NCBI GenBank assembly: GCA_021295755.1
Contig: JAGWBT010000003.1
Location: 43,129-107,128, forward strand
Source of the DNA: Candidatus Poribacteria bacterium
Lineage (GTDB): Bacteria; Poribacteria; WGA-4E; PCPOR2b
Reading direction: 5' to 3'
DNA length: 64,000 bases
Position numbers and translations under genes: made by a program. Of this stretch, positions 27,625 to 55,428 are shown in pieces (the first letter of the stretch is position 1; every line of letters starts with the position of its first letter). Below the pieces are notes generated by a model. It made no database searches. It was not told the DNA's origin and saw only the letters and a program-made list of their open reading frames with translations.

Positions 27625-27651
27625 CAATCAAACACAATCAGGACGAGAGCG

Positions 27652-29154
27652 ATGCAAAGAAGACTAATTAGAATTATCTGCCTAATTTTAATGGTTGTGA
27701 GTTTTATCGCCTATATCGCGAAAGCGCCGGCTTTCCCGATCGCTTCGGAAAACCTACTGCCGTGGTCTGCATGGTTTTTTATCTTTGCTTTGGCGAATAT
27801 CATACTCTGGCAGAGCGTGGTCAAACTCATGTCATTTGCGTTGATGGTCATCTGGTTCTATGCGTTTGCGGCCAGCATTGTTCCAGAAACATCGACTGCG
27901 ACGTTTGACCCTAACGCCGTAGACCGGACGCCGGATGCGTTTATTGAGGTTGGGGAGATAATCTTTAACGGGAAAGGAAAATGCAACACCTGCCATACAC
28001 TTGATCCGTCTGCGCCAAAAAGTCGCTGTCCCGATTTAACGGATATTGGCACTCGCGCTGCAACACGCCAACCGGGAATGACTGCGAAGGAGTATCTCAT
28101 CGAATCCACCTATGAACCCCACAAATTCCTTGTTCCCGGCTACAGCAACATTATGCCGCCCGTCTGGAAACCACCAATCAGTCTAACTGAGTTGGAAATC
28201 GAAACCGTCATTGCCTTCCTCCAGAGTCAGGGTGGAGAAGTGGATGTAACAAAGTTTGAGCCGCCCGTTGATATCGGAAGTGCGGAAGCCATAGCCGAGG
28301 AATTGCCACCCCTCCTCACAGGCGACGTAGAACGTGGTAAAAAGGTTTTTGTAGAGGGCGCGAAGTGTATCGCGTGTCACGCTGTCGCTGGTGTCGAGCA
28401 ACCTACCGGTCAAACGCTTGACGAAGGTGTTGAAGTTGTCGCTGCACCCGAATTGACGGATATCGCTGGGTTAAACAGTCTCCGGTATATTGAGGAATCC
28501 GTCCTATTACCGAATGCTCAAATTGTGAGCGGATACGGTTCCGTTACGGTGAAAACCGGCGGTGCCACAATTCAGGGAACGCTTGTTACGCAAGATAATG
28601 AGCAGATCAGTGTGCGTGTTAAGGACGTAGCCGGTAACGAAGAAGAGCACACCATTCTATTGAGCGAGCTCGATCCAGAGCCGATTGAAGAGTTGACAGA
28701 TCTGACAGGGAAAGGATACTTCTGGATTCAAGTAACGCTTGCCGACACGGGAGCCACCGTAAGTGGCGATCTCGTAGAAGAGGACGACGAAAACATTATA
28801 CTTCAGGCGGGTGGAGAGACGCAAACGGTTTCTAAGTCGAACGTGAAGGTTCAGGCGACATTGATTGACTTTGATGAGAATGTTATCGTTGGGGAATTGG
28901 TATCGGAAAATGAGGACGAAGTCATCTTAAACGTTGATGGTGAGGAGCAGATCATTGATACATTCGATATCGACGAAGGTCCGAACTACAGCCGTGCTTT
29001 CGGTAAGCGATTGGTTGTAACTTCCCCGATGCCGAATAACTTTCCGTTGTTGCTATCGGTTTCCGACATGAGCGATCTACTCGCCTATCTAGCAAGCTTA
29101 ACGGGTGCGACAGACGCGACAGCGGCTGAGGGAGCAGAGGCAACCGCCGAATAA
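27652..29154 (+). CDS. Diheme c-type cytochrome with an N-terminal membrane domain and three C-terminal beta-rich repeats of about 35 aa
   Basis: CNTCH and CIACH motifs. Internal repeats: TGATIQGTLVTQDNEQISVRVKD, TGATVSGDLVEEDDENIILQAGG and VIVGELVSENEDEVILNVDG. Confidence 0.7.
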   Translation: MQRRLIRIICLILMVVSFIAYIAKAPAFPIASENLLPWSAWFFIFALANIILWQSVVKLMSFALMVIWFYAFAASIVPETSTATFDPNAVDRTPDAFIEVGEIIFNGKGKCNTCHTLDPSAPKSRCPDLTDIGTRAATRQPGMTAKEYLIESTYEPHKFLVPGYSNIMPPVWKPPISLTELEIETVIAFLQSQGGEVDVTKFEPPVDIGSAEAIAEELPPLLTGDVERGKKVFVEGAKCIACHAVAGVEQPTGQTLDEGVEVVAAPELTDIAGLNSLRYIEESVLLPNAQIVSGYGSVTVKTGGATIQGTLVTQDNEQISVRVKDVAGNEEEHTILLSELDPEPIEELTDLTGKGYFWIQVTLADTGATVSGDLVEEDDENIILQAGGETQTVSKSNVKVQATLIDFDENVIVGELVSENEDEVILNVDGEEQIIDTFDIDEGPNYSRAFGKRLVVTSPMPNNFPLLLSVSDMSDLLAYLASLTGATDATAAEGAEATAE

Positions 29155-29170
29155 GGAGAGTTAAACCGCC

Positions 29171-29950
29171 ATGCAAAGATTATCCCTTTTCACAAAATGC
29201 CTAATCATATTTGTTGTGCTTTGGCTCTTTTTAAGATTCTTCATCGGTGGTGTATGGTCTGTGCCGTTACCCGCTAGCGTGATCTCAATGTATTTGGGGC
29301 TTATTCTATTGGCGATTCTGGTTCACGTGTCCGTCGAAGATGACAGGTTTCGAGAATTTCTCCGTCCTGTCAAAGAGACCTTGGCTGATGAGGATAGGGG
29401 GACAAGGCGTACTGTGTTGTTTGTCCTTATTCCTTTGGTTATGCTTGGTTTAAGTTTTTCTAGGTTGTCAACAAAGGCAGATCCACCAGCCGCGCTGCGC
29501 ACTGCCCATCCGGCGCCACCTGATGAACTGACCTACCGCGACAAGGTTATCGGTCCCACGCAACAGGTGGAAAACCCCTTCCGGCACCTTGAAAAAGATG
29601 ACAAGGAAGCATTTAAGGCTCATGTAGAGAACGGACGGCGGGTCTATTATCAAAACTGTTTCTACTGCCACGGCGACGATCTTGATGGCGAAGGACATTT
29701 CGCTCACGGTTTCAACCCACCGCCTGCAAACTTTCAGGACCCTGGGATTATTCCGAACTTCCAGGAATCTTTCTTCTTCTGGCGTATTAGTAAGGGAGGC
29801 CCCGGTCTGCCGCCAGCTGCAACCCCGTGGGATTCTGCCATGCCGGTCTGGGAGGATCACCTGACAGAGGAGGAGATTTGGGATGTGATTCTCTTCCTGT
29901 CTGAATACACAGGGTATCGACCACGGACGTTTGGTGAAGCGGCGCATTAA
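29171..29950 (+). CDS. Membrane-anchored monoheme c-type cytochrome
   Basis: CFYCHG motif and two N-terminal hydrophobic helices. Confidence 0.7.
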   Translation: MQRLSLFTKCLIIFVVLWLFLRFFIGGVWSVPLPASVISMYLGLILLAILVHVSVEDDRFREFLRPVKETLADEDRGTRRTVLFVLIPLVMLGLSFSRLSTKADPPAALRTAHPAPPDELTYRDKVIGPTQQVENPFRHLEKDDKEAFKAHVENGRRVYYQNCFYCHGDDLDGEGHFAHGFNPPPANFQDPGIIPNFQESFFFWRISKGGPGLPPAATPWDSAMPVWEDHLTEEEIWDVILFLSEYTGYRPRTFGEAAH

Positions 29951-29972
29951 GATTGGAGCGGAAGAAAAAACA

Positions 29973-31715
29973 ATGAAAAAGCAATCCTATAATACAATGT
30001 TGATTTCAGTCGCCGGTCTTATTTTGTTGTTAGTGGTTTTTCCAATTACATCTCTTGCCCAAGGGAAACAGGCACCCGCAGCCTCCGAAGCAGGAAAGGC
30101 ACTCTATGATGATAAGTGTGCGCACTGCCACGGTATAGAGGGAGCGGGCGATGGATCTGCAGCAGAAAACCTGTTGCCAAGACCGAGGGATTTCACGCGG
30201 GGGCTTTACAAAATCCGTTCGACGGAAAGCGCTCAACTGCCCACCGATCAAGATCTCTTTGACATCATATCGAACGGTATGCCGGGATCCTCAATGCCAG
30301 CTTGGAGCGAACTGCTGAGTGAGGATCAACGGTGGCAACTCGTTGCCCATATCAAAACATTCCACGACGGCTTTGAAGGGGCTTCACCGCGGTTAATTGA
30401 TGTGTCGGGCAAAGTTCCATATTCTGAAGAGAGTGTCGCAAAAGGAAAAGAATTTTACACCACTCTTGGGTGTGTCGATTGCCACGGAGTGATTGGCAGA
30501 GGCGATGGTACGTCCGCCCCAGATCTGACCGATGAGTGGGGCTTTCGCACATGGCCCGCCAATCTATGGGAACAGTGGAATTATCGGGGCGGTGCGACAA
30601 CTGAGGATATTTTCAAACGATTCATCGGTGGTATTGCTGGCTCGCCGATGCCTTCGTTCATCTCAAGTTTTCGACTCGGTCTGACAGATGAGGAATCGGC
30701 TCGTATGAATGAGCTAGAACTCAAAATGGATGACGACGGTCTTTCAGAAGCGGAAGACGAAGAATACGCAGCGCTTGAGGAAAAGTTGTTTATGTTTGAA
30801 GACATCATGCTCAAGGTTGAAGAAGGCGAAGAACTTGAACCTGACGAACAGACTAAACTCGATACAGCCCTGAAGCCGATTTTTGAGAAAAGCTGGCACC
30901 TCGCAAATTATGTAAAATCCCTAGGACCCGAAGAGCGACCACCAGCGGCAGTCGGCGACAAAGTACTACGCTCACAATATCGCGCCGGTGCCTTGCCGGG
31001 CATAAACGATGAAGTGTGGAATGAAATTCAAGAAGCCAGTTATTTTCCGCTGGTCGGTCAAATTGTTATTGACCCTCGACAATTCAACCCCTCGATCGAT
31101 TCAATAATGGCAAAGTCGTTCTATAACGATAATGAAATTGCGTTTCTATTTACATGGGATGATCGGACGAAAACCCTTCCCCAGACAGACGACGAGACCG
31201 GAGAGACGGTTGAAGATGCTCTAGCAATTCAATTTCCGGTGAAGATTGCTGAAGGTCCGACGGATCCCAAACCTTACTTCATCTGGGGCGATCGGCTTCC
31301 CGTCTATCTCTGGAGTTGGAAGGTCGCTGAGCCGTCAACGGTGACAGAGATGACTGCGAAGGGGATCGATAAAGCGACTGTCCAAGCTGATCAAAGCCTA
31401 ATACAGGCTGAAGGGGTTTACGAAGATGGGCAATATCAACTATGGGTTAAAAGATCCCTCACAACCGATGACAAAAGAAATGACGTGCAGTTTACACCGG
31501 GCGTATTCATACCCATCGCTTTTTCTGCATGGGATGGCGCAAATGGTGATGTAAAAACGAAGCGAGCCATTTCAACGTGGTACACATTCGTCCTTGATCC
31601 CGTTCCATCGAACAAGCGATTTGTCTATCCGCCGCTGGTTGCCCTTATCTCCGTTGGCCTCCTTTTCGGCTTGAGAAGTAGTGTCAGGAGACGACAGAAT
31701 ACAGAAGAAGTTTAA
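29973..31715 (+). CDS. Diheme c-type cytochrome with a large C-terminal domain and a C-terminal TM anchor
   Basis: CAHCHG and CVDCHG motifs, a signal peptide, and a terminal hydrophobic helix YPPLVALISVGLLFGL. The start is the ATG at 29973 after GGAG; the listed ORF begins at an upstream TTG that overlaps the previous gene. Confidence 0.7.
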   Translation: MKKQSYNTMLISVAGLILLLVVFPITSLAQGKQAPAASEAGKALYDDKCAHCHGIEGAGDGSAAENLLPRPRDFTRGLYKIRSTESAQLPTDQDLFDIISNGMPGSSMPAWSELLSEDQRWQLVAHIKTFHDGFEGASPRLIDVSGKVPYSEESVAKGKEFYTTLGCVDCHGVIGRGDGTSAPDLTDEWGFRTWPANLWEQWNYRGGATTEDIFKRFIGGIAGSPMPSFISSFRLGLTDEESARMNELELKMDDDGLSEAEDEEYAALEEKLFMFEDIMLKVEEGEELEPDEQTKLDTALKPIFEKSWHLANYVKSLGPEERPPAAVGDKVLRSQYRAGALPGINDEVWNEIQEASYFPLVGQIVIDPRQFNPSIDSIMAKSFYNDNEIAFLFTWDDRTKTLPQTDDETGETVEDALAIQFPVKIAEGPTDPKPYFIWGDRLPVYLWSWKVAEPSTVTEMTAKGIDKATVQADQSLIQAEGVYEDGQYQLWVKRSLTTDDKRNDVQFTPGVFIPIAFSAWDGANGDVKTKRAISTWYTFVLDPVPSNKRFVYPPLVALISVGLLFGLRSSVRRRQNTEEV

Positions 31716-31849
31716 CCGCAACGTATGAGGGTAGACCATAACTCTTATTGCGAGAAGGTTCAAATATCTTGACTGTATTTGAAGCAGTCAAACATAATTG
31801 CCTCTCACTTATAACCTGTTCAAACAATAATTTCAAAAGGAGTTCAATC

Positions 31850-32629: not shown

Positions 32630-32643
32630 GCAAATGAGGGAAG

Positions 32644-33606: not shown

Positions 33607-33614
33607 ACTGAACT

Positions 33615-34409
33615 GTGCCAATATCAAGATTCTTACTCCCTGTGGCGACGATTTGGTGGCGTGAGATCATTCGATTTCTACGCCAACGGAGCCGTCTATT
33701 GAGCGCGGTTGCGCAACCGTTAATCTTTTGGCTGCTTTTGGGTGGTGGGCTGAACGCTTCATTTAAGCCGCCCGGCGTTCCCGAAGGAACGAGCTACATC
33801 GAATATTTTTACCCCGGTATCATCACGCTTACACTACTGTTTACAGCAATTTTTGCAACAATTTCGGTTGTCCAAGACCGTCGAGAAGGTTTTCTTCAAG
33901 GTGTGCTTGTTGCCCCGGTTTCAAGATGGGTTATCGTGCTGGGACAAGCACTTGGCGGCACAACGTTAGCACTCTTGCAGGGTGGTCTTTTTCTGTTTCT
34001 CGCACCGATAGTTGGAGTGCCGCTAAGCTTCTTCTCCGTGCTCGCAGCACTCGGTGTGATGTTGACCTTGTCCTTTGGCTTGACGAACTTAGGATTAATG
34101 ATCGCGTGGCGAATGGATTCTACACAAGGTTTTCATGCGATTATGAATCTTATTCTAATCCCAATTTGGCTGCTCTCCGGTGCTTTCTTCCCCGTATCTG
34201 GGGTGCCGATACTCCTTGAGTGGGTAATGAAATTAAATCCGCTTACCTACGGCGTTGCAGCCTTACGTCGTTGTCTATACTTTAACGCACCCATAATTTC
34301 TGAGGGAATTCCTCAACTCGCGTTATCGCTACTTGTTACCGGCGCGTTCTGCGTTATTACATACTTTGGTGCTGCTCGAACGGCATACCGTCGTCCGAAT
34401 GTAGCGTAA
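33615..34409 (+). CDS. ABC-2 family transporter permease
   Basis: Six-TM ABC-2 type, 264 aa, directly downstream of the ATPase. Confidence 0.75.
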   Translation: MPISRFLLPVATIWWREIIRFLRQRSRLLSAVAQPLIFWLLLGGGLNASFKPPGVPEGTSYIEYFYPGIITLTLLFTAIFATISVVQDRREGFLQGVLVAPVSRWVIVLGQALGGTTLALLQGGLFLFLAPIVGVPLSFFSVLAALGVMLTLSFGLTNLGLMIAWRMDSTQGFHAIMNLILIPIWLLSGAFFPVSGVPILLEWVMKLNPLTYGVAALRRCLYFNAPIISEGIPQLALSLLVTGAFCVITYFGAARTAYRRPNVA

Positions 34410-40077: not shown

Positions 40078-40299
40078 ATGACAGCCATACCCAAAAAAAG
40101 GCACCAATCAAAAAAGAAAAAAGCTCTTGATTCGATAAATGAAGAAACCGTTGTGCAATGTCAGTCGCAAAAACCGATTTGGAAAGTTGTTGCTGATATT
40201 GGGTCACAGATTCCCTTGGCAACGTGGGAAAAAGTCCCCGATGATGCTTCAATTAATTTCAAGCATTATCTTTACGGGGAACCCAAAAGGAACGCATGA
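40078..40299 (+). CDS. Putative antitoxin of a type II toxin-antitoxin pair (VapB-like)
   Basis: 73-aa Lys-rich ORF whose stop codon overlaps the PIN-toxin start codon (ATGA). Its C-terminal motif (...INFKHYLYGEPKR) resembles those I associate with PIN-partner antitoxins. Confidence 0.5.
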   Translation: MTAIPKKRHQSKKKKALDSINEETVVQCQSQKPIWKVVADIGSQIPLATWEKVPDDASINFKHYLYGEPKRNA

Positions 40300-40712
40300 A
40301 TGCCGTATTTGCTGATGCGGGATATTGGATTGCGCTGTTCAATCCTCGCGATCGGTTGCATGACATAGCAACTGCTGTGTCTCAAACTATAGAGAATCGA
40401 TCCATTGTTACCAGTCAGTTGGTGTTAATGGAATTCCTCAATTACTATGCCTCACTGGGTCGGATATTTCGGCAACGGGCAGTAGAAGTCGCGAGAAGTC
40501 TTCAACAATATCCGAACGTTGAAGTTGTCCCTTTGTCTGATGAACAGTTTGAAGCGGCATTGACTATGTATGCTCAGCGGCAAGATAAAACATGGGGGCT
40601 CATCGACTGTGCATCATTCCTCATTATGCAACAACGGCGTATTACAGAAGCACTTGCCTATGATGAACATTTCAGGCAAGCAGGTTTCATTCCTTTATTA
40701 CGCGAGAATTAG
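40296..40712 (+). CDS. vapC: PIN-domain toxin (VapC family)
   Basis: PIN acidic motifs: the N-terminal FADAGYWIALFNPRD and the distal LIDCASFLIMQQRRITEALAYDEHF; 138 aa. Confidence 0.75.
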   Translation: MNAVFADAGYWIALFNPRDRLHDIATAVSQTIENRSIVTSQLVLMEFLNYYASLGRIFRQRAVEVARSLQQYPNVEVVPLSDEQFEAALTMYAQRQDKTWGLIDCASFLIMQQRRITEALAYDEHFRQAGFIPLLREN

Positions 40713-48295: not shown

Positions 48296-50239
48296 ATGTT
48301 CAAAAAAATCTATGTACCTGTTGACAACTCGGACCATTCCGATGCGAGCGTCAATTTCGCTGTGGAGTTCGCCAAAAAATTTCAATCGCAACTCGTCGGC
48401 TCTCACGTCTATGCGGCGAAGATGCACGATGTGCGCTTCAAACAGATGGAGTACACGCTTCCCGAAGAATATCAGGATGAAGCCGAGCTTGAAAAACAGC
48501 GCCGGATTCATGACACATTGATTACGATGGGACTTCAGTTGATCTCCGATTCGTATTTGGAGGTCATGAAGAACAAGTGTGCTGAAAATGACATTCCCTT
48601 TGAAGCCAAGATGCCTGAGGGCAAACACTTCATCAAATTAGCAGAGGACATTCAGGCAAGCGATTATGACCTCGTGATCATGGGTGCCCTCGGTATGGGT
48701 GCCGTTAAGGATAGCCTACTCGGCGGCGTGGTTGAACGGGTTGTGCGACGTATTGAGACCGATACCCTTGTCGTCCGAAATATTGAGGAGATGCACGAAC
48801 AGAAGGGGCATATCCTCGTCGGGATCGACGGCAGCCCCGAATCCTTCGGCGGACTGAAGACGGCAATACGAATGGGCAAGGAGTTTGGTAGACAGGTTGA
48901 GGCAGTTGGTGTTTACGACCCGTATCTCCACTATGTGGTGTTCAACTCGGTTGTCAGCGTCCTAACCGAGCGAGCTTCCAAAACCTTCCGATTCAAAGAG
49001 CAGGAGCAGCTGCACGAGGAGGTCATTGACACCGGACTTGCCAAAATTTATCAATCCCATCTAGAGATTGCCCGGACCATCGCTAAGGAAGACCACAACT
49101 ACGACCTCAAAATTACCTTGCTAGACGGGAAAGCGTTTGAGAAGATCCTACAATATGCCCGAAAAACCGAACCGTGGATGTTAATGCTGGGCAGAATCGG
49201 TGTTCACAGCGATCCCGACATGGACATCGGCAGCAACACCGAAAACTTACTGCGCCTTGCTCCGTGTAATGTGTTCCTATCGAGCCAGCGGTATGTCCCA
49301 AAAGTTGATGTCAGGGCAGAGGAGACGGTGGTCTGGACACAGGAAGCCTTGGATCGGATGGCTAAGGCACCGCCGCAAGTGCAAGGTATCGCACGCACCG
49401 CTGTCCACCGTTTCGCCATTGAGCGTGGACACTCTGTGATTACGGAGAGCGTCATAGAGCAGGCAATGGACACCTTTATGCCGGGACGTTCGGCAGAACG
49501 GATGACCAAGGTTGCCAAAGAGATTGCAACGCAAACGGTTTTGGATTCCAATGCCATTAAGACCTACATCTGTGGGGATTGCGGCTATGCCGCCCGTGAC
49601 CAACAGCCGGTGAAATGTCCCGTTTGCGGCGTGGACGGAGATCAATTCCAGATGGTTGATAAAGATTCTCTCCAGAGGGTTGCGGATCAAGAGGGCGGCG
49701 TCAGTGAAGAACAGACCTTCGACGGTGTGCGTCTCCAATGGTCGGATCAAGCGAAAAAGGCTTTGCGCAATGTCCCAAGAGGATATATGCGTCGCAACGT
49801 CAAAGCGCGGATCGAAAAATCGGCACGTGTCCAAAAAATCGGTACAATCACCAACGAGTTTGCGATGCAGATTATCAACGAGAGTATGGATCAAGCTTCC
49901 GCTGTCCGTGAAGACGCGCCTGAACTGAAAGCTGTCGCGCAGTCCCGTGAGTCCACTGATACTTCCCAAGGAGAAATATTTGAAAGTCCGCTTGAATGGA
50001 CTTCAGATGCCCGTGAACGGCTGAACCTCGTGCCCGCTGGATTTATGCGGAACATCACGCAATCCCGTGTCGAGCAGCGAGCGCAGGAAGCCAACCTTAC
50101 AACAATCAACCTAGATTTCGCAGCGCAGGTGATTGAAGAAGGACGAAGTCTGGACAATGAGGTGCTTGGAACTTATTACCAGCAGGGTGAAGACACTACT
50201 GAAACGGAGAGCGATGAAGAGGAAGCGACGCAAGCGTAA
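48296..50239 (+). CDS. Multidomain protein: 2 x universal-stress-protein (USP) domains, a rubredoxin-like zinc ribbon and 3 x ChlB/BchB-C-terminal-like (PCP_red-like) domains
   Basis: Two USP-like halves (YVPVDNSDHS...; ILVGIDGSPES...). PCP_red-like repeats: VWTQEALDRMAKAPPQVQGIARTAVHRFAIERGHSVITESV, QWSDQAKKALRNVPRGYMRRNVKARIEKSAR and EWTSDARERLNLVPAGFMRNITQSRVEQRAQ. Zinc ribbon: CGDCGY...CPVCG. Confidence 0.6.
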   Translation: MFKKIYVPVDNSDHSDASVNFAVEFAKKFQSQLVGSHVYAAKMHDVRFKQMEYTLPEEYQDEAELEKQRRIHDTLITMGLQLISDSYLEVMKNKCAENDIPFEAKMPEGKHFIKLAEDIQASDYDLVIMGALGMGAVKDSLLGGVVERVVRRIETDTLVVRNIEEMHEQKGHILVGIDGSPESFGGLKTAIRMGKEFGRQVEAVGVYDPYLHYVVFNSVVSVLTERASKTFRFKEQEQLHEEVIDTGLAKIYQSHLEIARTIAKEDHNYDLKITLLDGKAFEKILQYARKTEPWMLMLGRIGVHSDPDMDIGSNTENLLRLAPCNVFLSSQRYVPKVDVRAEETVVWTQEALDRMAKAPPQVQGIARTAVHRFAIERGHSVITESVIEQAMDTFMPGRSAERMTKVAKEIATQTVLDSNAIKTYICGDCGYAARDQQPVKCPVCGVDGDQFQMVDKDSLQRVADQEGGVSEEQTFDGVRLQWSDQAKKALRNVPRGYMRRNVKARIEKSARVQKIGTITNEFAMQIINESMDQASAVREDAPELKAVAQSRESTDTSQGEIFESPLEWTSDARERLNLVPAGFMRNITQSRVEQRAQEANLTTINLDFAAQVIEEGRSLDNEVLGTYYQQGEDTTETESDEEEATQA

Positions 50240-50278
50240 AATCACGCCTTGAATGTCAATTTAGATCGGAGTTTGCCA

Positions 50279-50977
50279 ATGCCCCCCAGAAATCCTTTAC
50301 ATTTTGCGGAAATCCTTGTGTGTCTCGATGACTCAAACTATTCTCAGGCAGCGGTCGAATATGCCACCCAAATCGCTCTTGACCATGACGCATCACTGAC
50401 CGGTATCGGAGTAATCGATCTGCCGGGTATCCAACGTTCAAGCGGTCCCGCGCCAATTGGAGCGATGCACTACGATCGACTAGCTGACCAGCAACGCTTC
50501 CAGGAGACGCGGGAGGTAGTGTCTGGGGTCCTTGAAAATTTTGGGAAAACCTGTCAGGAAAAAGAGATCCGCCACTCCATCCATTCAGAGATGGGTAGCC
50601 CATTTCGGGAAATTATCGAAGAATCAAAATTCCACGATTTTATTATCATTGGGCAGAAGACCTTTTTTCGGTATAGCGTCAGACACGAACCGGGTAACAC
50701 CCTGGATCGAATCCTTCATAACGGGTTGACGGCGGCCCTTGCAGTCCCCGATTCTGTCAGACAGATTAAAAAAGTGCTTGTTGCTTATGATAACAGCGTC
50801 CAAGTTACCAAAGCAATTCAGATGTTTCTTCTGCTTCATATCTGGAATCAATGCGACATCACCCTCCTGAATGTCAACAACAATGCAAGTCGTGGAATAC
50901 AGTTGCTCGGCAGGCTCGGCGATTACTTCTGTAGGTATGGGGTACAGACAGAGAAAGTCCAAAATCGAAACGTATGA
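50279..50977 (+). CDS. Universal stress protein family protein
   Basis: USP-like ILVCLDDSNYSQAAVEYATQIA...; a partial second USP-like segment (KVLVAYDNS) follows. The start is uncertain (ATG 50279 versus TTG 50249). Confidence 0.55.
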   Translation: MPPRNPLHFAEILVCLDDSNYSQAAVEYATQIALDHDASLTGIGVIDLPGIQRSSGPAPIGAMHYDRLADQQRFQETREVVSGVLENFGKTCQEKEIRHSIHSEMGSPFREIIEESKFHDFIIIGQKTFFRYSVRHEPGNTLDRILHNGLTAALAVPDSVRQIKKVLVAYDNSVQVTKAIQMFLLLHIWNQCDITLLNVNNNASRGIQLLGRLGDYFCRYGVQTEKVQNRNV

Positions 50978-51867
50978 AAACCTACAAAGACCTCCCCGCC
51001 GATGGCGGTTCTAACATCGTTGGACAAGTGACACAGCAAGTCAATCGTTTGCAAAAACGGCTTGCATCAGTCCACCACACTGTTGCTATCATGAGTGGCA
51101 AAGGCGGTGTGGGCAAGAGTTCAGTCACGGCAAACCTTGCTTCGGCACTTAGATTGCGTGGGCACAATGTTGGTGTGATTGACGCTGACATCAACGGTCC
51201 TTCGATTGCTAAAATAATGGGGGTGAGAGGCCAGCGAATTGATTATGGTGACGATGGTGTAAAACCCGCTCTCAGTCCGCTAGGGGTCAAGGTGATGTCG
51301 ATGGATCTATTCCTCAAGGACGACGAAACACCAGTCCTCTGGGAATCCCAAACACAGAAGGATGCCTTCACTTGGCGGGGGACGATGGAAATGAGTGCTC
51401 TCCGCGAATTTCTCTCTGATACTGAATGGGGAACGCTTGATTATTTGCTGATTGATCTTCCACCCGGCGCAGATCGATTGCCAAATATCGTCGATCTCCT
51501 GCCAAATCTTAGCGGAACGGTTGTTGTCACAATTCCTTCTGGAGTGTCACAGCTTGTCGTCAAAAAATCGCTGACGATGGCAAAGAAACTACTTAACGCG
51601 CCGGTGATCGGCATCGTCGAAAATATGGCCGCTTATGTGTGCGCCGATTGTGGTAAAACCGAAGACCTGTTTCCGTCGGGACACACCGAGGAGATGGCAC
51701 GTCAATTCGACATCCCTCTACTTGGTAAAATACCTTTTGATCCGCGCATCTCTATTGCAGCGGATGAAGGCAGTGTGTTTGTCGATCAATACGAAGATAC
51801 TCCCGCAGGACAAACGTTTTTCCGCATCACAGATGAAATTCGGATGTTCTTGGAACGGAAAATGTAA
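50974..51867 (+). CDS. apbC: Mrp/NBP35/ApbC-family Fe-S cluster carrier ATPase
   Basis: Deviant Walker A GKGGVGKSS and the conserved CxxC (CADCGK) of Mrp/NBP35 proteins; 297 aa. Confidence 0.85.
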   Translation: MKTYKDLPADGGSNIVGQVTQQVNRLQKRLASVHHTVAIMSGKGGVGKSSVTANLASALRLRGHNVGVIDADINGPSIAKIMGVRGQRIDYGDDGVKPALSPLGVKVMSMDLFLKDDETPVLWESQTQKDAFTWRGTMEMSALREFLSDTEWGTLDYLLIDLPPGADRLPNIVDLLPNLSGTVVVTIPSGVSQLVVKKSLTMAKKLLNAPVIGIVENMAAYVCADCGKTEDLFPSGHTEEMARQFDIPLLGKIPFDPRISIAADEGSVFVDQYEDTPAGQTFFRITDEIRMFLERKM

Positions 51868-51887
51868 CGTATAAATGGAGTCAACCA

Positions 51888-52388
51888 ATGAAATTCTTAT
51901 GTCTTGAATGTAACACAGCGATGGAATTTAAGGAAACAGCGACGCCGGATCAAGGTTCGTTGACGGCGATCTTCGAGTGCCCAGATTGCTTCGCTGAGTT
52001 CGCAATGCACATGAACCCGTGGGAAACCCAGATGCTGAAATCCCTCGATGTGCAACTCGGTGGTAAAAGCGAAGCAGCACAGCCGATGCAGGTCGTACGT
52101 TCCTTCTTGAGTGAAAAGAACCCCGAAAATCTGACCTCCGAGGCACCTACAGCGTCCACGGAAGGTGGTGGGAAATGCCCGTTTACATCAGTTGTATCGG
52201 AAGCGTTTCAGGAGGCGGAGGCGAGCGGACCGGTATGGACACCAGAAGCATTAACGCGTTTAGAGCGCGTACCTAGTTTCGTCCGCTCAATGGCGAAAAA
52301 CAGCATCGAAGAGTTCGCCCGCGAAAATGGACACACCGAAATCACCACCGAAGTGATGGATACTGCACGCGGTGACTTTGGAATGTAG
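51888..52388 (+). CDS. Zinc-ribbon protein with a C-terminal PCP_red-like domain
   Basis: CLECN...CPDCF treble-clef-like Cys pairs, and the C-terminal VWTPEALTRLERVPSFVRSMAKNSIEEFARENGHTEITTEVM. Confidence 0.55.
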   Translation: MKFLCLECNTAMEFKETATPDQGSLTAIFECPDCFAEFAMHMNPWETQMLKSLDVQLGGKSEAAQPMQVVRSFLSEKNPENLTSEAPTASTEGGGKCPFTSVVSEAFQEAEASGPVWTPEALTRLERVPSFVRSMAKNSIEEFARENGHTEITTEVMDTARGDFGM

Positions 52389-52470
52389 GAGTTGATCATA
52401 GGGAAAGCGAAAGGGATTTTTCTCACACAAGTTGCGATAGACCCGCCATCGTATCCTATTTCACTCACTT

Positions 52471-52980
52471 ATGGCTCCAATTGTCGAACTGTTCATCCGA
52501 TGGATACATTTTACCGCCGCAATCGTTTGGCTTGGCGGAATCTTTTTTTCTCTCAGCGTCGCAACTCCGATTCTGAGAAAGCATTTTCAAATCCTTGAAA
52601 GTGTCCAACATACCACCACGATCCGGAATCGTCTGCGGCACGTTATCCGATTCACAATCCACATTCTCCTGATTACCGGTGCGATGAACCTGTTCATCGT
52701 CGGATTGAACACGCAGATGCGCTTTTCTCAGGACTACGGCTATTTTGTCCTTTTTATTGTAAAACTTGCCTTTGTAGGATTGATGACGCTTTTTCATAGC
52801 CTGCATATCGCAGTTTTCAATCGAAAATTAGAGTCAGCGGTGACAAACCCGAATTTCGATGCTTCAGAAGTCGCCAAGCTGCGAAGGAAAGTAGACCTAT
52901 TCGGAATTTTGACTATCTTTGCTGGACTTGTTGTCTTTGCATGCTCCCTGTATCTCCGCCAAATGATAGGGGGCCAATAA
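52471..52980 (+). CDS. Four-TM membrane protein, HemJ/CopD-like (a conserved His in TM1)
   Basis: IRWIHFTAAIVWLGGIFF resembles the W-x-H...W-x-G N-terminal helix of the HemJ and CopD families; 169 aa. Confidence 0.35.
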   Translation: MAPIVELFIRWIHFTAAIVWLGGIFFSLSVATPILRKHFQILESVQHTTTIRNRLRHVIRFTIHILLITGAMNLFIVGLNTQMRFSQDYGYFVLFIVKLAFVGLMTLFHSLHIAVFNRKLESAVTNPNFDASEVAKLRRKVDLFGILTIFAGLVVFACSLYLRQMIGGQ

Positions 52981-53088
52981 GGCTGAAATTCACGTCAAAA
53001 CATGTGGACTGGTGTAATCAAAAACTCTGCGTTCTCCGTGTCTCTGCGGTGAAATACATGACAGCATATCAAGTTTTAAGGAACACTC

Positions 53089-54390
53089 ATGGAAACGAAA
53101 GTCCAAGCCGTTTCGTGGAATATCACACGGCTATGCAATCTCAAATGTACACACTGCTATCTCCCCGCTGGGTTTGTTGATACCAACGAGTTTCCGAGCG
53201 GATATTATCGAGATACAGAGTTGACTCAATCCCAGTGTTTTCGCGTGATTGATGAGATTGCCGAAATCAATCCCAATATTCTCCTCATTCTCACAGGTGG
53301 TGAACCGTTGCTGCGGCCTGATATCCTGAAAATATCAGATTACGCGGCCCGCACCGGATTCTTAGTGGTGATGGGCACAAACGGCGTTCTGCTGAACGAT
53401 GAAACGGTTCAGAAGATGAGCGACCACGGTGTCGCTGGCGCAGGCATCAGTTTGGATGCTGTGGATCCGGTCAATCACGACAAGTTCCGAGGCATGGACG
53501 GGGCTTGGGAAGGCACGATGAACGGCGTCGAAGCCCTTAAGCGTGCAAACCTCGATTTCCTTGTGCAGACTTCCGTGACGCGCTGGAATTACGACGAAAT
53601 TCCACAAATTGTTGATTTCGCCTATGAACTCGGTGCGAAGGTGTTCAATCTCTATTTCCTCGTGAGAACTGGCAGAGGAAAAACAGTGATGGATATCACT
53701 CCAGCTCAATATGAACGTATGCTCTCAACGCTCTTTGAATTGCAAGCGAAATATCGAGGCAAAATGCTTGTTGCGGCGAAATGTGCGCCACACTACAAAC
53801 GGGTCATCTATGAGCAACAATCGGATTCCCCATTCCTGCAAGCCTATCCGAGTGGCACCTGCCCCTGTGGTATCTACTACTGCCGCATCACACCTGAAGG
53901 CGATTTGACACCGTGCCCATACATGCCGGTAAATGTCGGGAATCTGAAGACTGAAAGTTTTGCGACCCTCTGGAATCAATCGAAGGTTTTTCATGAACTA
54001 CGAGATCGGAAATTGTTGGAAGGTAAGTGTGGTGCCTGTGAATTTCGAGACGTTTGCGGCGGTTGTCGCGCCCGTGCTTATGCCCTCACCGACAACTATC
54101 TCGCTGAAGATCCATCCTGCGAATACCAACCGGGACAGGCGGGAAATCAAAACATCCGTTTTGAAAAAACGACGCCCTTTGCAGCTGAAACCGACTACGA
54201 GTTACAATGGACAGATGCTGCACAACAAAGATTACAGCGTGTCCCCTCCTTTGCACGGGGGATGGTCACCAAAAGCGTCGAAAAATACGCCCGTGAGCAC
54301 GGCTACAATGAAATCACGCCGGAAATCATGAAAGCTGTCAAGGATCGGTTTGATAAAACGGGCATTCCGTCCTTCAGACCCCGGCGGTAA
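53089..54390 (+). CDS. Radical SAM/SPASM enzyme (AhbD/NirJ/PqqE-like) with a C-terminal PCP_red-like domain
   Basis: CNLKCTHCY radical-SAM cluster, TGGEPLLRPD, a SPASM-type Cys cluster (CPCG...CGACEFRDVCGGCRARA) and the C-terminal QWTDAAQQRLQRVPSFARGMVTKSVEKYAREHGYNEITPEIM. Confidence 0.75.
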   Translation: METKVQAVSWNITRLCNLKCTHCYLPAGFVDTNEFPSGYYRDTELTQSQCFRVIDEIAEINPNILLILTGGEPLLRPDILKISDYAARTGFLVVMGTNGVLLNDETVQKMSDHGVAGAGISLDAVDPVNHDKFRGMDGAWEGTMNGVEALKRANLDFLVQTSVTRWNYDEIPQIVDFAYELGAKVFNLYFLVRTGRGKTVMDITPAQYERMLSTLFELQAKYRGKMLVAAKCAPHYKRVIYEQQSDSPFLQAYPSGTCPCGIYYCRITPEGDLTPCPYMPVNVGNLKTESFATLWNQSKVFHELRDRKLLEGKCGACEFRDVCGGCRARAYALTDNYLAEDPSCEYQPGQAGNQNIRFEKTTPFAAETDYELQWTDAAQQRLQRVPSFARGMVTKSVEKYAREHGYNEITPEIMKAVKDRFDKTGIPSFRPRR

Positions 54391-54432
54391 ACTATAGCTG
54401 ACAGACATATTTTCAATTGAGGAGAGAAAATA

Positions 54433-54846
54433 ATGAGCAGTGAAAATAAAGTTGAAGAACGATTATCTGCGGTCGAAGACCGGTTGAATCGCTTAGAAGA
54501 TCTACTAGTTGGTATCAGTCAGAAACTGGATCAGAAACCTCAACCGACGGCAATTGATGAGGAGAAAGGGGAAGCATTCAAAGGTTGGGTGACCGATTAC
54601 GTGTCCATGCGCTTGCAGCAACTCGTACCAGAGACGTGCGACCATCCCGCCGAAGCGAAAGCGGGAGAAGGCCCATTTTTGGGTAACACCTCAATCCGTT
54701 GCACGGAGGAAGTCGTTCACCGTGTCAAGCGAATCCCCATCCCATTTGTTCGAGAGATGGTTGTCCAGCGTGTTGCTGACAATGCACGGCGGGCGAATGT
54801 AGATGTGGTCGAAATTGATTTCTTTGAAAAAGCGGCAACCTTTTGA
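54433..54846 (+). CDS. Small protein: N-terminal coiled-coil plus one PCP_red-like domain
   Basis: RCTEEVVHRVKRIPIPFVREMVVQRVADNARRANVDVVEIDF aligns with the repeats in the neighbouring genes. Confidence 0.5.
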   Translation: MSSENKVEERLSAVEDRLNRLEDLLVGISQKLDQKPQPTAIDEEKGEAFKGWVTDYVSMRLQQLVPETCDHPAEAKAGEGPFLGNTSIRCTEEVVHRVKRIPIPFVREMVVQRVADNARRANVDVVEIDFFEKAATF

Positions 54847-54933
54847 CAATGCGAAGCAACGGAGGAGTTTCCTCTGCCGCACTTCCACTGGGAGGATTTT
54901 TTAACATCTCCTCTTTGAGATGATGCCGATCCC

Positions 54934-55428
54934 ATGTCAACATACCCACTCGATGAAAATCAACGGGAAGCCTATCAAGCCTTAGCCGCTCACATCGATT
55001 CCGGGGCTAAGGGCGGGACGGTATGTCTCGTCGGAGAATTTCAGTCCGGTAAAACAAATTTAGTCAAGCATCTACTCAAGAAAAAAATTGGTAACTCTAC
55101 AGATTACTATGTAAACCTAAATCTGTATCTGCTTGATGAATTAGACAAGCAGCGGGGATCAATCGCATACGCCGGCGCGAAAGCGAAAATACACCTCCTG
55201 ATACAGATCGCAATTGAAGATCTGCTAGACAAGCATTTCCAAACGCACAATCTCCTCGTCCTTGATGCTATTGAAATGGTATATTCCTACGAGCTCAATC
55301 TCGTTGCCATTACCGATCGCTTTGCCCGCGATGGTAAGTGCTGTATCATCTGCGTGCCTGAAAGCGAAAAAAATAATTACCACTTCGACTTTAGTTGGGA
55401 ACTTGCAGAGGCGATCCGAATCAACTGA
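54934..55428 (+). CDS. Small P-loop NTPase of unknown function
   Basis: Walker A GEFQSGKTN and a Walker-B-like LLVLD; 164 aa. Confidence 0.45.
   Translation: MSTYPLDENQREAYQALAAHIDSGAKGGTVCLVGEFQSGKTNLVKHLLKKKIGNSTDYYVNLNLYLLDELDKQRGSIAYAGAKAKIHLLIQIAIEDLLDKHFQTHNLLVLDAIEMVYSYELNLVAITDRFARDGKCCIICVPESEKNNYHFDFSWELAEAIRIN

What the first reader, a model, noticed from the sequence alone, without database searches (positions are those of the whole stretch)
48296..55428. Gene cluster built around six copies of a ~45-aa ChlB/BchB-C-terminal-like (PCP_red-like) domain, combined with an Fe-S carrier, radical SAM/SPASM, zinc ribbons and USP domains
The six repeated segments are read directly from the translations. 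All share the pattern W(T/S)xxAxxRLxxVPxFxRxMxxxxxExxARExGxxxITxExM. I recognise this as the helical domain that, in DPOR subunit B, caps the protochlorophyllide-binding pocket. Here the copies are fused to USP domains, a rubredoxin-like ribbon, a treble-clef ribbon and a radical SAM/SPASM enzyme of the AhbD/NirJ type. The cluster also holds an ApbC/Mrp Fe-S carrier and a HemJ/CopD-like membrane protein. No nitrogenase-like catalytic subunits are present. My inference is that this is an uncharacterised tetrapyrrole or metallocofactor handling, maturation or trafficking module. I know of no described system with this composition.
Basis: partly seen in the sequence, partly recalled or inferred. 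Interest (0 to 1): 0.85.

Follow-up and report, generated by a model that had tools for sequence, protein, structure and literature searches.

The report
Haem-maturation genes linked to respiratory oxidases
This Poribacteria gene cluster, built around a small repeated helical domain, recurs in at least eight bacterial phyla next to an uncharacterised cytochrome bd-like oxidase and haem-synthesis genes, so it most likely makes and delivers haem for respiratory enzymes, a module I found described nowhere.

Summary
The window (a Candidatus Poribacteria metagenome contig) has six PCP_red (PF08369) copies in four adjacent + strand genes at 48296-54846 and none elsewhere. Five copies are strong and one is degenerate.

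The neighbourhood is conserved. The core set is a tandem-USP protein with 3-4 PCP_red copies, an Mrp/ApbC ATPase, a Cys4-ribbon PCP_red protein, and a radical SAM/SPASM-PCP_red fusion. It recurs in many phyla, including Acidobacteriota, Gemmatimonadota, Rhodothermales and Methylomirabilota.

In about half of the loci from other phyla it lies on the same strand beside an OR-N2-type cytochrome bd-like oxidase operon. That operon is also in this window, at 25801-31715. In other lineages the module lies next to HemY (proto/coproporphyrinogen oxidase), haem o synthase CtaB, or COX1-CtaA-CtaB.

The radical SAM core is closest to AhbD/NirJ2 (42-43% identity to true AhbD). It fails both curated cut-offs and forms its own clade.

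Best reading (inferred, not shown): a cytoplasmic, oxygen-independent module for the last step of haem synthesis and for haem hand-off to terminal oxidases.

The parts
48296..50239 (+). UspPCP: 647-aa cytoplasmic protein. Domain order: tandem USP domains, PCP_red, rubredoxin-like Cys4 ribbon, PCP_red, PCP_red.
   Evidence: Pfam: Usp 119 bits, PCP_red 96.4 bits in 3 stretches, RUBY_RBDX 27.6 bits. Homologues of 76-97% identity are named Candidatus Poribacteria. Orthologues occur in 31 of 53 other-phylum loci. Both USP halves carry conserved His/Asp-rich inserts, and the second has a G-x2-G-x9-G-S motif. No TM helices.
49334..49465 (+). PCP_red copy 1 (residues 347-390 of UspPCP)
   Evidence: Pfam best stretch 347-390; motif listing; own HMM iE 7.7e-25.
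49565..49648 (+). Rubredoxin-like CxxC...CxxC ribbon (residues 424-451 of UspPCP)
   Evidence: PF21349, 27.6 bits against a 26.5-bit cut-off. The four Cys are conserved in about 79% of 38 orthologues.
49739..49873 (+). PCP_red copy 2 (residues about 482-526 of UspPCP)
   Evidence: own HMM iE 2.8e-25.
49997..50131 (+). PCP_red copy 3 (residues about 568-612 of UspPCP)
   Evidence: own HMM iE 2e-24.
50249..50977 (+). Single-domain USP protein (242 aa from a TTG start; the ENA gene call is 232 aa). It is a lineage-specific filler of the slot after UspPCP.
   Evidence: Pfam Usp 49.4 bits; gene call. In Acidobacteria and in L043 this slot holds a GNAT-like gene instead.
50974..51867 (+). Mrp/ApbC/NBP35-type P-loop ATPase (Fe-S cluster carrier family) with a CxxC motif. 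It has no extra N- or C-terminal domains.
   Evidence: PF10609 260.5 bits. NCBIfam MrpORP 266 bits (below the 450 cut-off; only positions 2-249 of 365 are covered) and ApbC 180 bits. The CADCG motif is visible in the translation. Present in 30 of 53 other-phylum loci.
51888..52388 (+). ZnPCP: 166-aa protein. Invariant N-terminus MKFLCxxC...CPxC (Cys4 ribbon), then a conserved K-C-P-F motif, then PCP_red at residues 117-161 (nt 52236-52370).
   Evidence: PCP_red 68 bits. Across 29 orthologues from several phyla the four ribbon Cys are 97-100% conserved and C97-P98-F99 is 86-90% conserved. It almost always directly follows Mrp. NCBI names it 'PCP reductase family protein'.
52471..52980 (+). Small four-helix membrane protein, CopD/HemJ-like, with an N-terminal RWIHF...WLGG motif.
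   Evidence: CopD 31.3 bits (cut-off 32.1) and UPF0093 18.2 bits; TM prediction. Conserved in 16 Poribacteria loci and, in the same position after ZnPCP, in Rhodothermales L056. The ENA gene caller instead annotated a minus-strand ORF here.
53089..54390 (+). Radical SAM/SPASM enzyme of the AhbD/NirJ2 branch, fused to a C-terminal PCP_red domain (residues 374-418, nt 54208-54342).
   Evidence: Radical_SAM 84.7, SPASM 38.6 and PCP_red 62.1 bits. AhbD 325.6 and NirJ2 303 bits, both below the 500 cut-off. CxxxCxxC plus nine invariant Cys. The fusion forms its own clan in 193 of 200 bootstraps.
54433..54846 (+). 137-aa protein: N-terminal coiled-coil-like segment plus a degenerate PCP_red copy (residues 93-134, nt 54709-54834). 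Specific to Poribacteria.
   Evidence: PCP_red 19.4 bits, E 1e-3, below the cut-off; own HMM E 7e-5. An iterative search links it to all PCP_red proteins, and orthologues occur only in Poribacteria loci.
54934..55428 (+). 164-aa weak P-loop protein. It is adjacent to the module but probably not part of it.
   Evidence: Only sub-threshold AAA_14 and BrxF hits. Found only in L001 and L006. A terminator-like hairpin at 54882-54895 precedes it.
25801..31715 (+). Partner operon in the same window, an OR-N2-type cytochrome bd-like complex. Genes: CydA-like membrane subunit (607 aa, about 13 TM, no CxxCH), a 500-aa dihaem cytochrome c, a 259-aa cytochrome c, and a 594-aa dihaem cytochrome c with an EbdC-like haem b domain.
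   Evidence: Precomputed Pfam: Cyt_bd_oxida_I, Cytochrom_C, EB_dh. NCBIfam DMSO_red_II_gam 78.8 bits. TM and CxxCH counts. The composition matches the published description of OR-N2 operons. In other phyla this block is directly adjacent to the PCP_red module.

Best explanation
The cluster is a cytoplasmic accessory module that completes and hands over haem for membrane terminal oxidases. Its main client is the uncharacterised OR-N2 cytochrome bd-like complex, and also haem-copper oxidases through CtaB/CtaA.

Proposed steps (all inferred):
1. The radical SAM/SPASM-PCP_red enzyme does the AhbD-type chemistry. This is SAM-dependent, oxygen-independent oxidative decarboxylation of the two propionates on rings A and B of a copro-type tetrapyrrole to vinyl groups. 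The substrate is most likely coproheme, giving haem b.
2. The Mrp/ApbC ATPase, with its constant partner ZnPCP, loads or repairs the three [4Fe-4S] clusters of that enzyme. The Cys4 ribbons or nearby ferredoxins serve as its redox partners.
3. The PCP_red domain is shared by the enzyme, ZnPCP and UspPCP. It is the common module that brings these proteins and the tetrapyrrole together, either as a tetrapyrrole-binding lid or as a docking domain. The conserved KCPF motif in ZnPCP may act as a transient haem site.
4. UspPCP, with two nucleotide-binding-type USP domains and 3-4 PCP_red copies, acts as a nucleotide- or stress-responsive scaffold or carrier. It couples haem supply to assembly of the oxidase under low oxygen.

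What is shown: domain content, conservation, gene linkage and family placement.
What is inferred: substrate, product, binding, and the roles of Mrp, ZnPCP and UspPCP.
For: - Six PCP_red copies lie in one tight + strand gene row, with gaps of -4 to 108 bp.
- The rSAM core scores best on AhbD (325.6 bits) and NirJ2 (303), well above peptide maturases. It is 42-43% identical to loci proteins that pass the AhbD cut-off at 554-560 bits.
- It keeps the CxxxCxxC motif and nine invariant Cys, as expected for two auxiliary clusters.
- In 53 loci from other phyla, UspPCP is present in 31, Mrp in 30, ZnPCP in 28, and a terminal-oxidase gene in 29. Twenty-four loci have both UspPCP and OR-N2. Of 13 AhbD-like genes without PCP_red, none has any of these neighbours.
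- Same-strand adjacency to the block bd-like/cyt c/cyt c/cyt c-EbdC is seen in Acidobacteriota, Gemmatimonadota, Rhodothermales, Binatia, Anammoxibacter and others.
- The reciprocal scan started from the bd-like protein. About 17 of 27 long metagenome loci carry UspPCP plus the rSAM next to OR-N2.
- The gene after the rSAM is HemY in 16 or more of these loci (TIGR00562 241-264 bits against a 97.85 cut-off).
- L043 reads cyt c, cyt c-EbdC, HemY, UspPCP, GNAT, Mrp, ZnPCP, rSAM-PCP, haem o synthase (TIGR01473 272.5 bits against 210.3), all on one strand.
- Methylomirabilota loci place the module after COX1-CtaA-CtaB. Other Poribacteria place it right after CtaA-CtaB-SCO1.
- Reviews state that AhbD replaces ChdC as the oxygen-independent coproheme decarboxylase in some organisms with the coproporphyrin pathway (PMC13564367; PMC7242693). 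ChdC/HemQ, a marker of that pathway, has been identified in Acidobacteria and Planctomycetes (PMC5095920).
- All module proteins lack TM helices and signal peptides. That fits cytoplasmic cofactor synthesis for b/d/o/a-type haems rather than periplasmic c-type haem attachment.
Against: - No biochemical data exist for any member.
- The rSAM fails the curated AhbD and NirJ2 cut-offs and is a separate clade, so its substrate and product may differ.
- No ferrochelatase or ChdC was seen in any locus, and there is no HemY in this window.
- I could not test whether these genomes already have another terminal haem enzyme.
- About 8 of 27 long OR-N2 loci lack the module within 10 kb.
- In Nitrospina and Brocadia the fusion stands alone among unrelated genes.
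- PCP_red has no demonstrated tetrapyrrole contact. The trans-acting helix of BchB lies upstream of it.
- HemY normally needs O2, whereas the rSAM is an O2-sensitive enzyme type.
- The structure models were too poor to test whether PCP_red docks on the active site.
Confidence: 0.5

Rival explanations
1. The rSAM-PCP_red enzyme does not make ordinary haem b. It converts haem or a precursor into a special haem (d-like, or another modified macrocycle) that is used only in the active site of the OR-N2 bd-like subunit. The PCP_red proteins carry that special cofactor.
For: - The enzyme is a distinct clade that fails both the AhbD and NirJ2 equivalog cut-offs.
- Its relatives include NirJ, which replaces propionates with oxo groups (PMC7242693).
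- Linkage is tightest to OR-N2 operons.
- OR-N proteins keep the ligand of the active-site haem (preprint 10.1101/2021.01.16.426971).
- One Brocadiaceae record annotates the fusion as 'nirJ 3', which hints at further paralogues.
Against: - Linkage to HemY and to haem o synthase and to COX1-CtaA-CtaB without OR-N2 in Methylomirabilota points to the common haem b pool.
- Many OR-N2 loci lack the module.
- No evidence exists on the haem types in OR-N2.
Confidence: 0.17
2. PCP_red is not a tetrapyrrole-binding element but a small three-helix docking domain. The module is mainly a USP-based regulatory and Fe-S maintenance unit. It recruits an Fe-S enzyme, a redox ribbon protein and an Mrp ATPase into one complex under stress. 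The link to tetrapyrroles comes only from the rSAM.
For: - The Pchlide contact in BchB is assigned to helix 398-420, not to the PF08369 region at about 454-533.
- The conserved PCP_red positions (W, A, L, P, F, R, E, A, IT) look like a hydrophobic core rather than ligand residues.
- Copy number varies from 1 to 4 and copies move between proteins. Brocadia has three on the rSAM and Anammoxibacter two, as expected of an interaction module.
- USP proteins beside respiratory operons rise under low O2 in Nitrospira marina (PMC8115632).
Against: - This is not exclusive with the best explanation, because it changes only the role of one domain.
- The conserved KCPF motif in ZnPCP resembles a haem-regulatory Cys-Pro motif (established knowledge of HRMs; my inference here).
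- The domain's only other known home is a tetrapyrrole enzyme.
Confidence: 0.2
3. The rSAM/SPASM enzyme is a protein or peptide maturase, as most SPASM enzymes are. It installs a cross-link or other modification in an oxidase subunit or in one of the small PCP_red proteins, and PCP_red serves as the substrate-recognition element.
For: - The SPASM domain and hits to many peptide maturases, though at lower scores (PqqE 130 bits, mycofactocin 132, anSME 77).
- Small proteins of 137 and 166 aa are encoded next to it.
- The closest solved structures are PqqE and SkfB.
Against: - Scores on AhbD/NirJ2 are 2-4 times higher than on any peptide maturase.
- Identity to bona fide AhbD is 42-43% over the whole core.
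- HemY and CtaB are neighbours.
- In many loci only UspPCP accompanies the enzyme.
Confidence: 0.06
4. The adjacency is fortuitous. These would be unrelated stress, Fe-S and rSAM genes that happen to lie together in Poribacteria.
For: - Gene order between the core genes is variable.
- The slot after UspPCP holds different genes in different lineages (USP, GNAT).
- The promoter and terminator scans are not above chance.
Against: - The same four families co-occur in at least eight phyla, at rates of 28-31 of 53 loci against 0 of 13 for AhbD-like genes without PCP_red.
- They share a rare domain.
- The reciprocal search from the oxidase recovers them.
Confidence: 0.02

Closest known systems
AhbD (haem b synthase; TIGR04545) and NirJ2 of the siroheme-dependent and hybrid coproporphyrin haem pathways
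   Same: - Radical SAM CxxxCxxC plus a SPASM domain with two auxiliary clusters.
- Best family scores, at 325.6 and 303 bits.
- 42-43% identity over the core.
- Known to act as the oxygen-independent coproheme decarboxylase in organisms that otherwise use the coproporphyrin pathway.
   Different: - Below the 500-bit equivalog cut-offs, whereas real AhbDs from the fetched loci score 554-560.
- Forms a separate clan (193 of 200 bootstraps).
- Always carries 1-3 C-terminal PCP_red domains.
- Embedded in a UspPCP/Mrp/ZnPCP set that true AhbD genes lack (0 of 13 loci).
- No AhbA/B/C-like neighbours.
C-terminal domain of DPOR subunit B (BchB/ChlB) and the stand-alone protein Asr4154 (PDB 2l09, 2kru, 2xdq, 3aek)
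   Same: The same 45-residue three-helix domain, PF08369. The model of the 166-aa protein gives three helices at pLDDT of about 85.
   Different: - No nitrogenase-like BchN/BchB/BchL genes appear among the called genes of the window.
- Here the domain is fused to USP, Cys4 ribbons and a radical SAM enzyme, in a non-phototroph.
- Its role in DPOR is itself unclear from what I read. The Pchlide-contacting helix is residues 398-420, upstream of the domain.
OR-N2 family of the cytochrome bd superfamily (Murali, Gennis, Hemp preprint 10.1101/2021.01.16.426971)
   Same: The partner operon (CydA-like with about 13-14 TM helices and no Q-loop haem c, several cytochromes c, an EbdC-like subunit) matches their description of OR-N2 operons.
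   Different: - That work does not mention radical SAM, USP, Mrp or PCP_red genes in the text or the held supplements.
- The link to a putative haem-maturation module is new here.
- Subfamily placement was not tested by phylogeny.
Mrp/NBP35/ApbC Fe-S carriers, including MrpORP of the Desulfovibrio orange-protein complex
   Same: P-loop NUBPL-type ATPase with a CxxC motif. The best NCBIfam hit is MrpORP.
   Different: - Only the ATPase core is present (positions 2-249 of 365), at 266 bits against a 450 cut-off.
- Lacks the C-terminal domain of MrpORP and the N-terminal domain of ApbC.
- Always paired with ZnPCP.
Dedicated oxidase cofactor and assembly gene sets (CtaA/CtaB/SCO1 for haem-copper oxidases; CydDC for cytochrome bd)
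   Same: Accessory genes encoded beside the oxidase they serve. In this window CtaA, CtaB and SCO1 lie between the OR-N2 block and the module.
   Different: Entirely different protein families. No transporter is involved. The module acts upstream, at or before haem b.

Membership tests
PF08369 PCP_red domain | Match to the Pfam HMM above the gathering score (32.5 bits) | tested here: met
   647-aa protein 96.4 bits (3 stretches), 166-aa protein 68.0, 433-aa protein 62.1. The sixth copy, in the 137-aa protein, scores 19.4 bits and fails the cut-off. It is recovered by a family-specific HMM (E 7e-5) and by iterative search.
AhbD haem b synthase (TIGR04545 equivalog) | Radical SAM CxxxCxxC motif and a SPASM domain with auxiliary-cluster cysteines | tested here: met
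   C16-x3-C20-x2-C23. Invariant C232, C258, C265, C276, C314, C317, C323, C326 and C344. PF04055 and PF13186 hits.
AhbD haem b synthase (TIGR04545 equivalog) | Score at or above the curated equivalog cut-off (500 bits), and grouping with characterised AhbD | tested here: not met
   325.6 bits. Fusions from six other phyla score 282-333, while AhbD from the Methanocella, Thermodesulfobacteriota and Syntrophus loci scores 554-560. The fusions form a separate clan in 193 of 200 bootstraps.
AhbD haem b synthase (TIGR04545 equivalog) | Catalyses coproheme to haem b | not testable with these tools
   Needs an anaerobic enzyme assay or genetic complementation.
NirJ2 (TIGR04055) / NirJ (TIGR04051) | Score at or above the curated cut-offs (500 / 515 bits) | tested here: not met
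   303.2 and 190.1 bits.
Mrp/ApbC/NBP35 Fe-S carrier ATPase | NUBPL-type P-loop domain (PF10609) with a CxxC cluster-bridging motif | tested here: met
   260.5 bits against a 27.1 cut-off. 'CADCG' is present in the translation.
MrpORP (NF041136 equivalog) | Full-length match at or above 450 bits, including the C-terminal domain | tested here: not met
   266 bits, covering only profile positions 2-249 of 365.
Universal stress protein (PF00582) | USP alpha/beta domain, with the ATP-type G-x2-G-x9-G-S/T motif | tested here: met
   119.1 bits in two stretches. The second domain has GRIGVHSDPDMDIGS, conserved across phyla. ATP binding itself was not tested.
CopD / HemJ (UPF0093) membrane protein superfamily | Pfam match above the gathering score | tested here: inconclusive
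   CopD 31.3 against 32.1 bits; UPF0093 18.2 against 34.2. The Rhodothermales orthologue scores 29.7 on CopD. Four predicted TM helices and an N-terminal His-x6-W-x-GG motif.
OR-N2 cytochrome bd-like oxidase operon (partner, window 25801-31715) | A CydA-like subunit with about 14 TM helices and no haem c site, encoded with several cytochromes c and an EbdC homologue | tested here: met
   Pfam Cyt_bd_oxida_I, Cytochrom_C and EB_dh; about 13 TM helices and no CxxCH; published description.
OR-N2 cytochrome bd-like oxidase operon (partner, window 25801-31715) | Phylogenetic placement within the OR-N2 clade and its signature residues | not tested
DPOR (nitrogenase-like protochlorophyllide reductase) | BchL/BchN/BchB catalytic subunits | tested here: not met
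   No nitrogenase-component domain appears among the called genes of the window. The BchB models match only their last 55-80 residues.
Coproporphyrin-dependent haem pathway context | Linkage to CgoX/HemY, CpfC and a coproheme decarboxylase | tested here: inconclusive
   HemY (TIGR00562 223-264 bits against a 97.85 cut-off) lies next to the module in L043 and in 16 or more metagenome loci. There is no HemY in this window, and no ferrochelatase was seen in any locus examined.

The most novel reading that the evidence does not exclude
PCP_red proteins are a previously unrecognised family of cytoplasmic haem or tetrapyrrole chaperones. Together with a new AhbD-like radical SAM enzyme and a dedicated Mrp ATPase, they form the missing maturation system for the OR-N cytochrome bd-like oxidases of nitrite oxidisers, anammox bacteria, Poribacteria, Acidobacteriota and others. 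They may supply a modified active-site haem, and they may be required to express these enzymes heterologously.
Probability: 0.25. Interest if true: 0.85.

Novelty: new variant of a known kind. Interest (0 to 1): 0.66.

Why it matters
The OR-N enzymes are putative high-affinity terminal oxidases of ecologically important bacteria, including Nitrospira, Nitrospina, anammox bacteria, soil Acidobacteriota, Gemmatimonadota and sponge Poribacteria. They are still uncharacterised: their subunit composition and function lack experimental confirmation (PMC10839748).

A conserved accessory module encoded beside them gives a concrete list of genes to co-express. It also gives a testable idea about how their haems are made and inserted when oxygen is scarce.

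The finding defines a new clade of tetrapyrrole-type radical SAM enzymes. It also gives the first functional context for PF08369 outside chlorophyll biosynthesis, where the domain is currently annotated only as 'PCP reductase family protein'.

If the enzyme is simply an AhbD isozyme, the result still extends the hybrid coproporphyrin/AhbD route to many Gram-negative phyla. It would also show that the route comes with dedicated Fe-S and carrier proteins.

Tried and rejected
- AlphaFold2 models. The rSAM fusion (12-sequence alignment) gave mean pLDDT 58.4 and pTM 0.53, with the SPASM part below 50. ZnPCP (18 sequences, Poribacteria only) gave mean pLDDT 53.6, with only the PCP_red helices confident. 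Both were too poor for fold searches or for judging whether PCP_red docks on the active site, so no fold search was run.
- Apparent Mrp-ZnPCP fusions (L044 817 aa, L061 470 aa, L040). Pfam showed truncated or absent ParA matches, so these are ORF-calling artefacts in high-GC DNA, not Rosetta-stone fusions.
- First NJ tree. My outgroup rule wrongly included three fusions, which gave a meaningless 0/50 result. I redid it as an unrooted clan test.
- Literature searches for PF08369/PCP_red, Asr4154, 'bd-like' plus radical SAM or USP, and AhbD plus anammox found nothing relevant.
- Neighbours of the solitary Nitrospina and Brocadia fusions are unrelated genes (type II secretion, two-component systems, tRNA synthetase) and say nothing about function.
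- One look-up with a TTG-start ORF failed because the recorded gene start differs.
- The second rSAM/SPASM gene of the window (1686-2906, minus strand) is not AhbD-like (52 bits) and was dropped.
- The representative-library search on the rSAM fusion was still queued after three collection attempts. It was never collected and none of its results are used.
- The promoter and terminator scan was not above shuffled expectation. It is used only as a weak hint for the g7/g8 boundary.

Full report
**What is in the window**

The window is part of an ENA metagenome contig (ERZ15614602 NODE_114, 118 kb). Its proteins are 76-100% identical to proteins labelled Candidatus Poribacteria.

Between 48296 and 55428 lie eight + strand ORFs separated by -4 to 108 bp. 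Pfam and NCBIfam give the following:
- g1 (48296-50239, 647 aa): USP, USP, PCP_red, rubredoxin-like ribbon, PCP_red, PCP_red.
- g2 (50249-50977): a single USP domain.
- g3 (50974-51867): an Mrp/ApbC P-loop ATPase.
- g4 (51888-52388, 166 aa): Cys4 ribbon plus PCP_red.
- g5 (52471-52980): a four-helix membrane protein with sub-threshold CopD/HemJ matches.
- g6 (53089-54390, 433 aa): Radical_SAM, SPASM, PCP_red.
- g7 (54433-54846, 137 aa): a degenerate PCP_red copy.
- g8 (54934-55428): a weak P-loop protein.

**Check of the observation**

Five PCP_red copies are far above the Pfam gathering score. The sixth, in g7, is below it at 19.4 bits. A family-specific HMM recovers it (E 7e-5), and an iterative search seeded with g7 pulls in all PCP_red proteins. 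A six-frame scan finds no other copy in the 64 kb.

PDB sequence searches tie the domain to the extreme C-terminus of BchB/ChlB and to the stand-alone protein Asr4154.
- g8 occurs only in the nearest relatives, and a terminator-like hairpin lies in front of it. It is probably not part of the unit.
- g5 is a real gene. It is conserved in 16 Poribacteria loci and, in the same position, in a Rhodothermales genome. The public gene call nevertheless annotates a minus-strand ORF there.

**Is the neighbourhood conserved?**

I aligned rSAM-PCP_red fusions (A1) and scanned one genome per GTDB species. I then annotated the 80 loci with the window's own proteins and a PCP_red HMM.

The fusion occurs in these groups:
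- Poribacteria
- anammox Planctomycetota (Brocadia, Scalindua, Anammoxibacter)
- Nitrospinaceae
- Methylomirabilota/Rokubacteria
- Anaerolineales
- Acidobacteriota (Vicinamibacterales, Thermoanaerobaculia)
- Gemmatimonadota
- Rhodothermales/Bacteroidota
- Binatia
- MAGs labelled Deltaproteobacteria

Of 53 loci outside Poribacteria:
- 31 carry a UspPCP orthologue,
- 30 an Mrp,
- 28 a ZnPCP, which nearly always directly follows Mrp,
- 29 a terminal-oxidase gene.

Thirteen AhbD-like genes without PCP_red, from archaea and Desulfobacterota, have none of these neighbours. Sixteen loci, mainly Nitrospina and anammox or short contigs, have the fusion alone.

**The unexpected partner**

In a Logan contig the fusion and UspPCP are flanked by a CydA-like gene, cytochromes c and an EB_dh protein. 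The same four-gene block sits in this window at 25801-31715. It is followed by an ABC transporter, an aa3-type oxidase operon with CtaA, CtaB and SCO1, succinate dehydrogenase and fumarase, and then the PCP_red cluster.

In 23-24 of the 53 other-phylum loci the block is directly adjacent to the module on the same strand. A typical order is bd-like, cyt c, cyt c, cyt c-EbdC, UspPCP, (GNAT), Mrp, ZnPCP, rSAM-PCP.

[quoted passage not shown] That preprint does not mention radical SAM, USP, Mrp or PCP_red genes. OR-N enzymes remain uncharacterised.

The reciprocal test started from the bd-like protein in JGI metagenomes. It recovered UspPCP plus the rSAM next to OR-N2 in about 17 of 27 loci of 18 kb or more. 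Eight long loci lack them, and that lineage has no Mrp or ZnPCP nearby.

**Links to haem synthesis**

In that metagenome lineage the gene following the rSAM is a HemY-family proto/coproporphyrinogen oxidase. It scores 241-264 bits on TIGR00562 against a cut-off of 97.85, in 16 or more loci.

In genome locus L043 one strand reads cyt c, cyt c-EbdC, HemY, UspPCP, GNAT-like, Mrp, ZnPCP, rSAM-PCP, haem o synthase (TIGR01473 272.5 bits against 210.3).

Methylomirabilota place the module after COX1-CtaA-CtaB. Several Poribacteria place it directly after CtaA-CtaB-SCO1. The module thus sits between a porphyrinogen oxidase and the enzymes that consume haem b.

**What the radical SAM enzyme is**

It scores 325.6 bits on AhbD and 303 on NirJ2, against 130 or less on peptide maturases. 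It is 42-43% identical to proteins in my loci that pass the AhbD cut-off with 554-560 bits.

Fusions from seven phyla, the window included, all score only 282-350 on both models, below the 500-bit cut-offs. They form one clan apart from AhbD, AhbC and NirJ2-like sequences in 193 of 200 NJ bootstraps. It is therefore a distinct subfamily of the tetrapyrrole side-chain radical SAM enzymes, not an AhbD equivalog.

It keeps the SAM-cluster motif and nine invariant cysteines. Reviews state that AhbD serves as the oxygen-independent coproheme decarboxylase in some organisms with the coproporphyrin pathway. HemQ/ChdC, a marker of that pathway, has been identified in Acidobacteria and Planctomycetes.

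**The other proteins**

ZnPCP is a sharply defined family. It has an invariant MKFLCxxC...CPxC, then a K-C-P-F motif conserved at 86-90%, then PCP_red. A Cys-Pro pair followed by a hydrophobic residue is the classic haem-regulatory motif. That is established knowledge, and its application here is my inference.

UspPCP has conserved His/Asp-rich inserts in both USP halves and an ATP-type glycine motif in the second. None of the module proteins has a TM helix or signal peptide. A ferredoxin precedes Mrp in one Longimicrobiales locus.

PCP_red copy number shifts between proteins:
- three on the rSAM in Brocadia,
- two on the rSAM and one on the USP protein in Anammoxibacter,
- four on UspPCP in the metagenome lineage.

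This fits a module that works within one complex.

**Caveat on the domain**

The cryo-EM study I could read assigns the trans contact with Pchlide to BchB helix 398-420. PF08369 aligns to about residues 454-533 of BchB. The domain may be a lid, a docking element or both; that is open.

**Verdict**

The most likely function is an oxygen-independent module for the terminal step of haem synthesis and for haem hand-off to terminal oxidases, above all OR-N2 (confidence about 0.5). The rivals are:
- a special haem for OR-N2 (0.17),
- PCP_red as a pure docking domain in a USP/Fe-S regulatory unit (0.2, which partly overlaps the best explanation),
- a protein or peptide maturase (0.06),
- chance adjacency (0.02).

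The components are known families. The conserved combination and its link to OR-N2 are not described in anything I could find. I rate it a new variant of a known kind, of clear interest to people working on haem biosynthesis and on unconventional terminal oxidases.

Noticed in passing
window 15079-48198: The finding sits at the end of a long respiratory island. In order: Rieske/cytochrome b genes, a 1041-aa multihaem cytochrome c, the OR-N2 bd-like block, an aa3-type oxidase operon with CtaA, CtaB, COX3 and SCO1, a succinate dehydrogenase with a CCG-type (SdhE/HdrB-like) anchor, and class II fumarase.
   Followed up: partly
window 52465-52806 (-) versus 52471-52980 (+): The public ENA gene call has a 113-aa minus-strand ORF where the conserved + strand CopD/HemJ-like membrane gene lies. 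This is probably a mis-call.
   Followed up: yes
window 31748-34409; also L034 12277-13341, L096 1078-2058, L109 1491-2390, L052 7099-7812: A CarboxypepD_reg/fn3-like protein, and in the window and L052 an ABC-2 permease (with an ABC ATPase in the window), recur next to OR-N2 blocks in several phyla. The arrangement recalls NosDFY-type accessory sets. Function unknown.
   Followed up: partly
L091, L096, L098, L101, L102, L108, L109, L111 (about 2000-15000 in each): In one metagenome lineage the four-gene OR-N2 block is tandemly duplicated. The first CydA-like copy is about 100 aa longer than the second.
   Followed up: no
L098 16752-18989; L122 6639-9038; similar genes in L136, L137, L140, L142: A HEAT/PBS-lyase-like repeat protein of 745-851 aa lies between UspPCP and the OR-N2 operon. 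It has CpcE/NblB-type repeats, a family that handles linear tetrapyrroles.
   Followed up: partly
L049 7928-8818; L036 13398-14318; L043 6228-7106: A GNAT-like acetyltransferase of about 300 aa occupies the slot after UspPCP in Acidobacteriota and in L043. Poribacteria have a single-domain USP gene there.
   Followed up: partly
L064 (Binatia), whole locus: The contig is a mirror image of itself around position 11500, with every gene repeated in inverted order. This is most likely an assembly artefact.
   Followed up: no
L049 and L020: The record titles (Bifidobacteriaceae; Nitrospiraceae NP85) do not fit the gene content. L049 looks like Vicinamibacterales, and the L020 rSAM is 73% identical to the Poribacteria one. 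Both are probably mis-binned MAG contigs.
   Followed up: no
window 40296-40712: A PIN-domain gene, with small ORFs beside it, sits inside the cytochrome oxidase cluster between the two COX3-like genes. It may be a toxin-antitoxin insertion.
   Followed up: no
window 1686-2906 (-): A second radical SAM/SPASM gene lies next to a glycosyltransferase. It is unrelated to AhbD (52 bits), and its best weak hits are to twitch-domain and tungsten-cofactor maturases.
   Followed up: partly
L113 3-1746: Two FGE-sulfatase (SUMF1-like) genes lie directly upstream of UspPCP in one metagenome locus.
   Followed up: no
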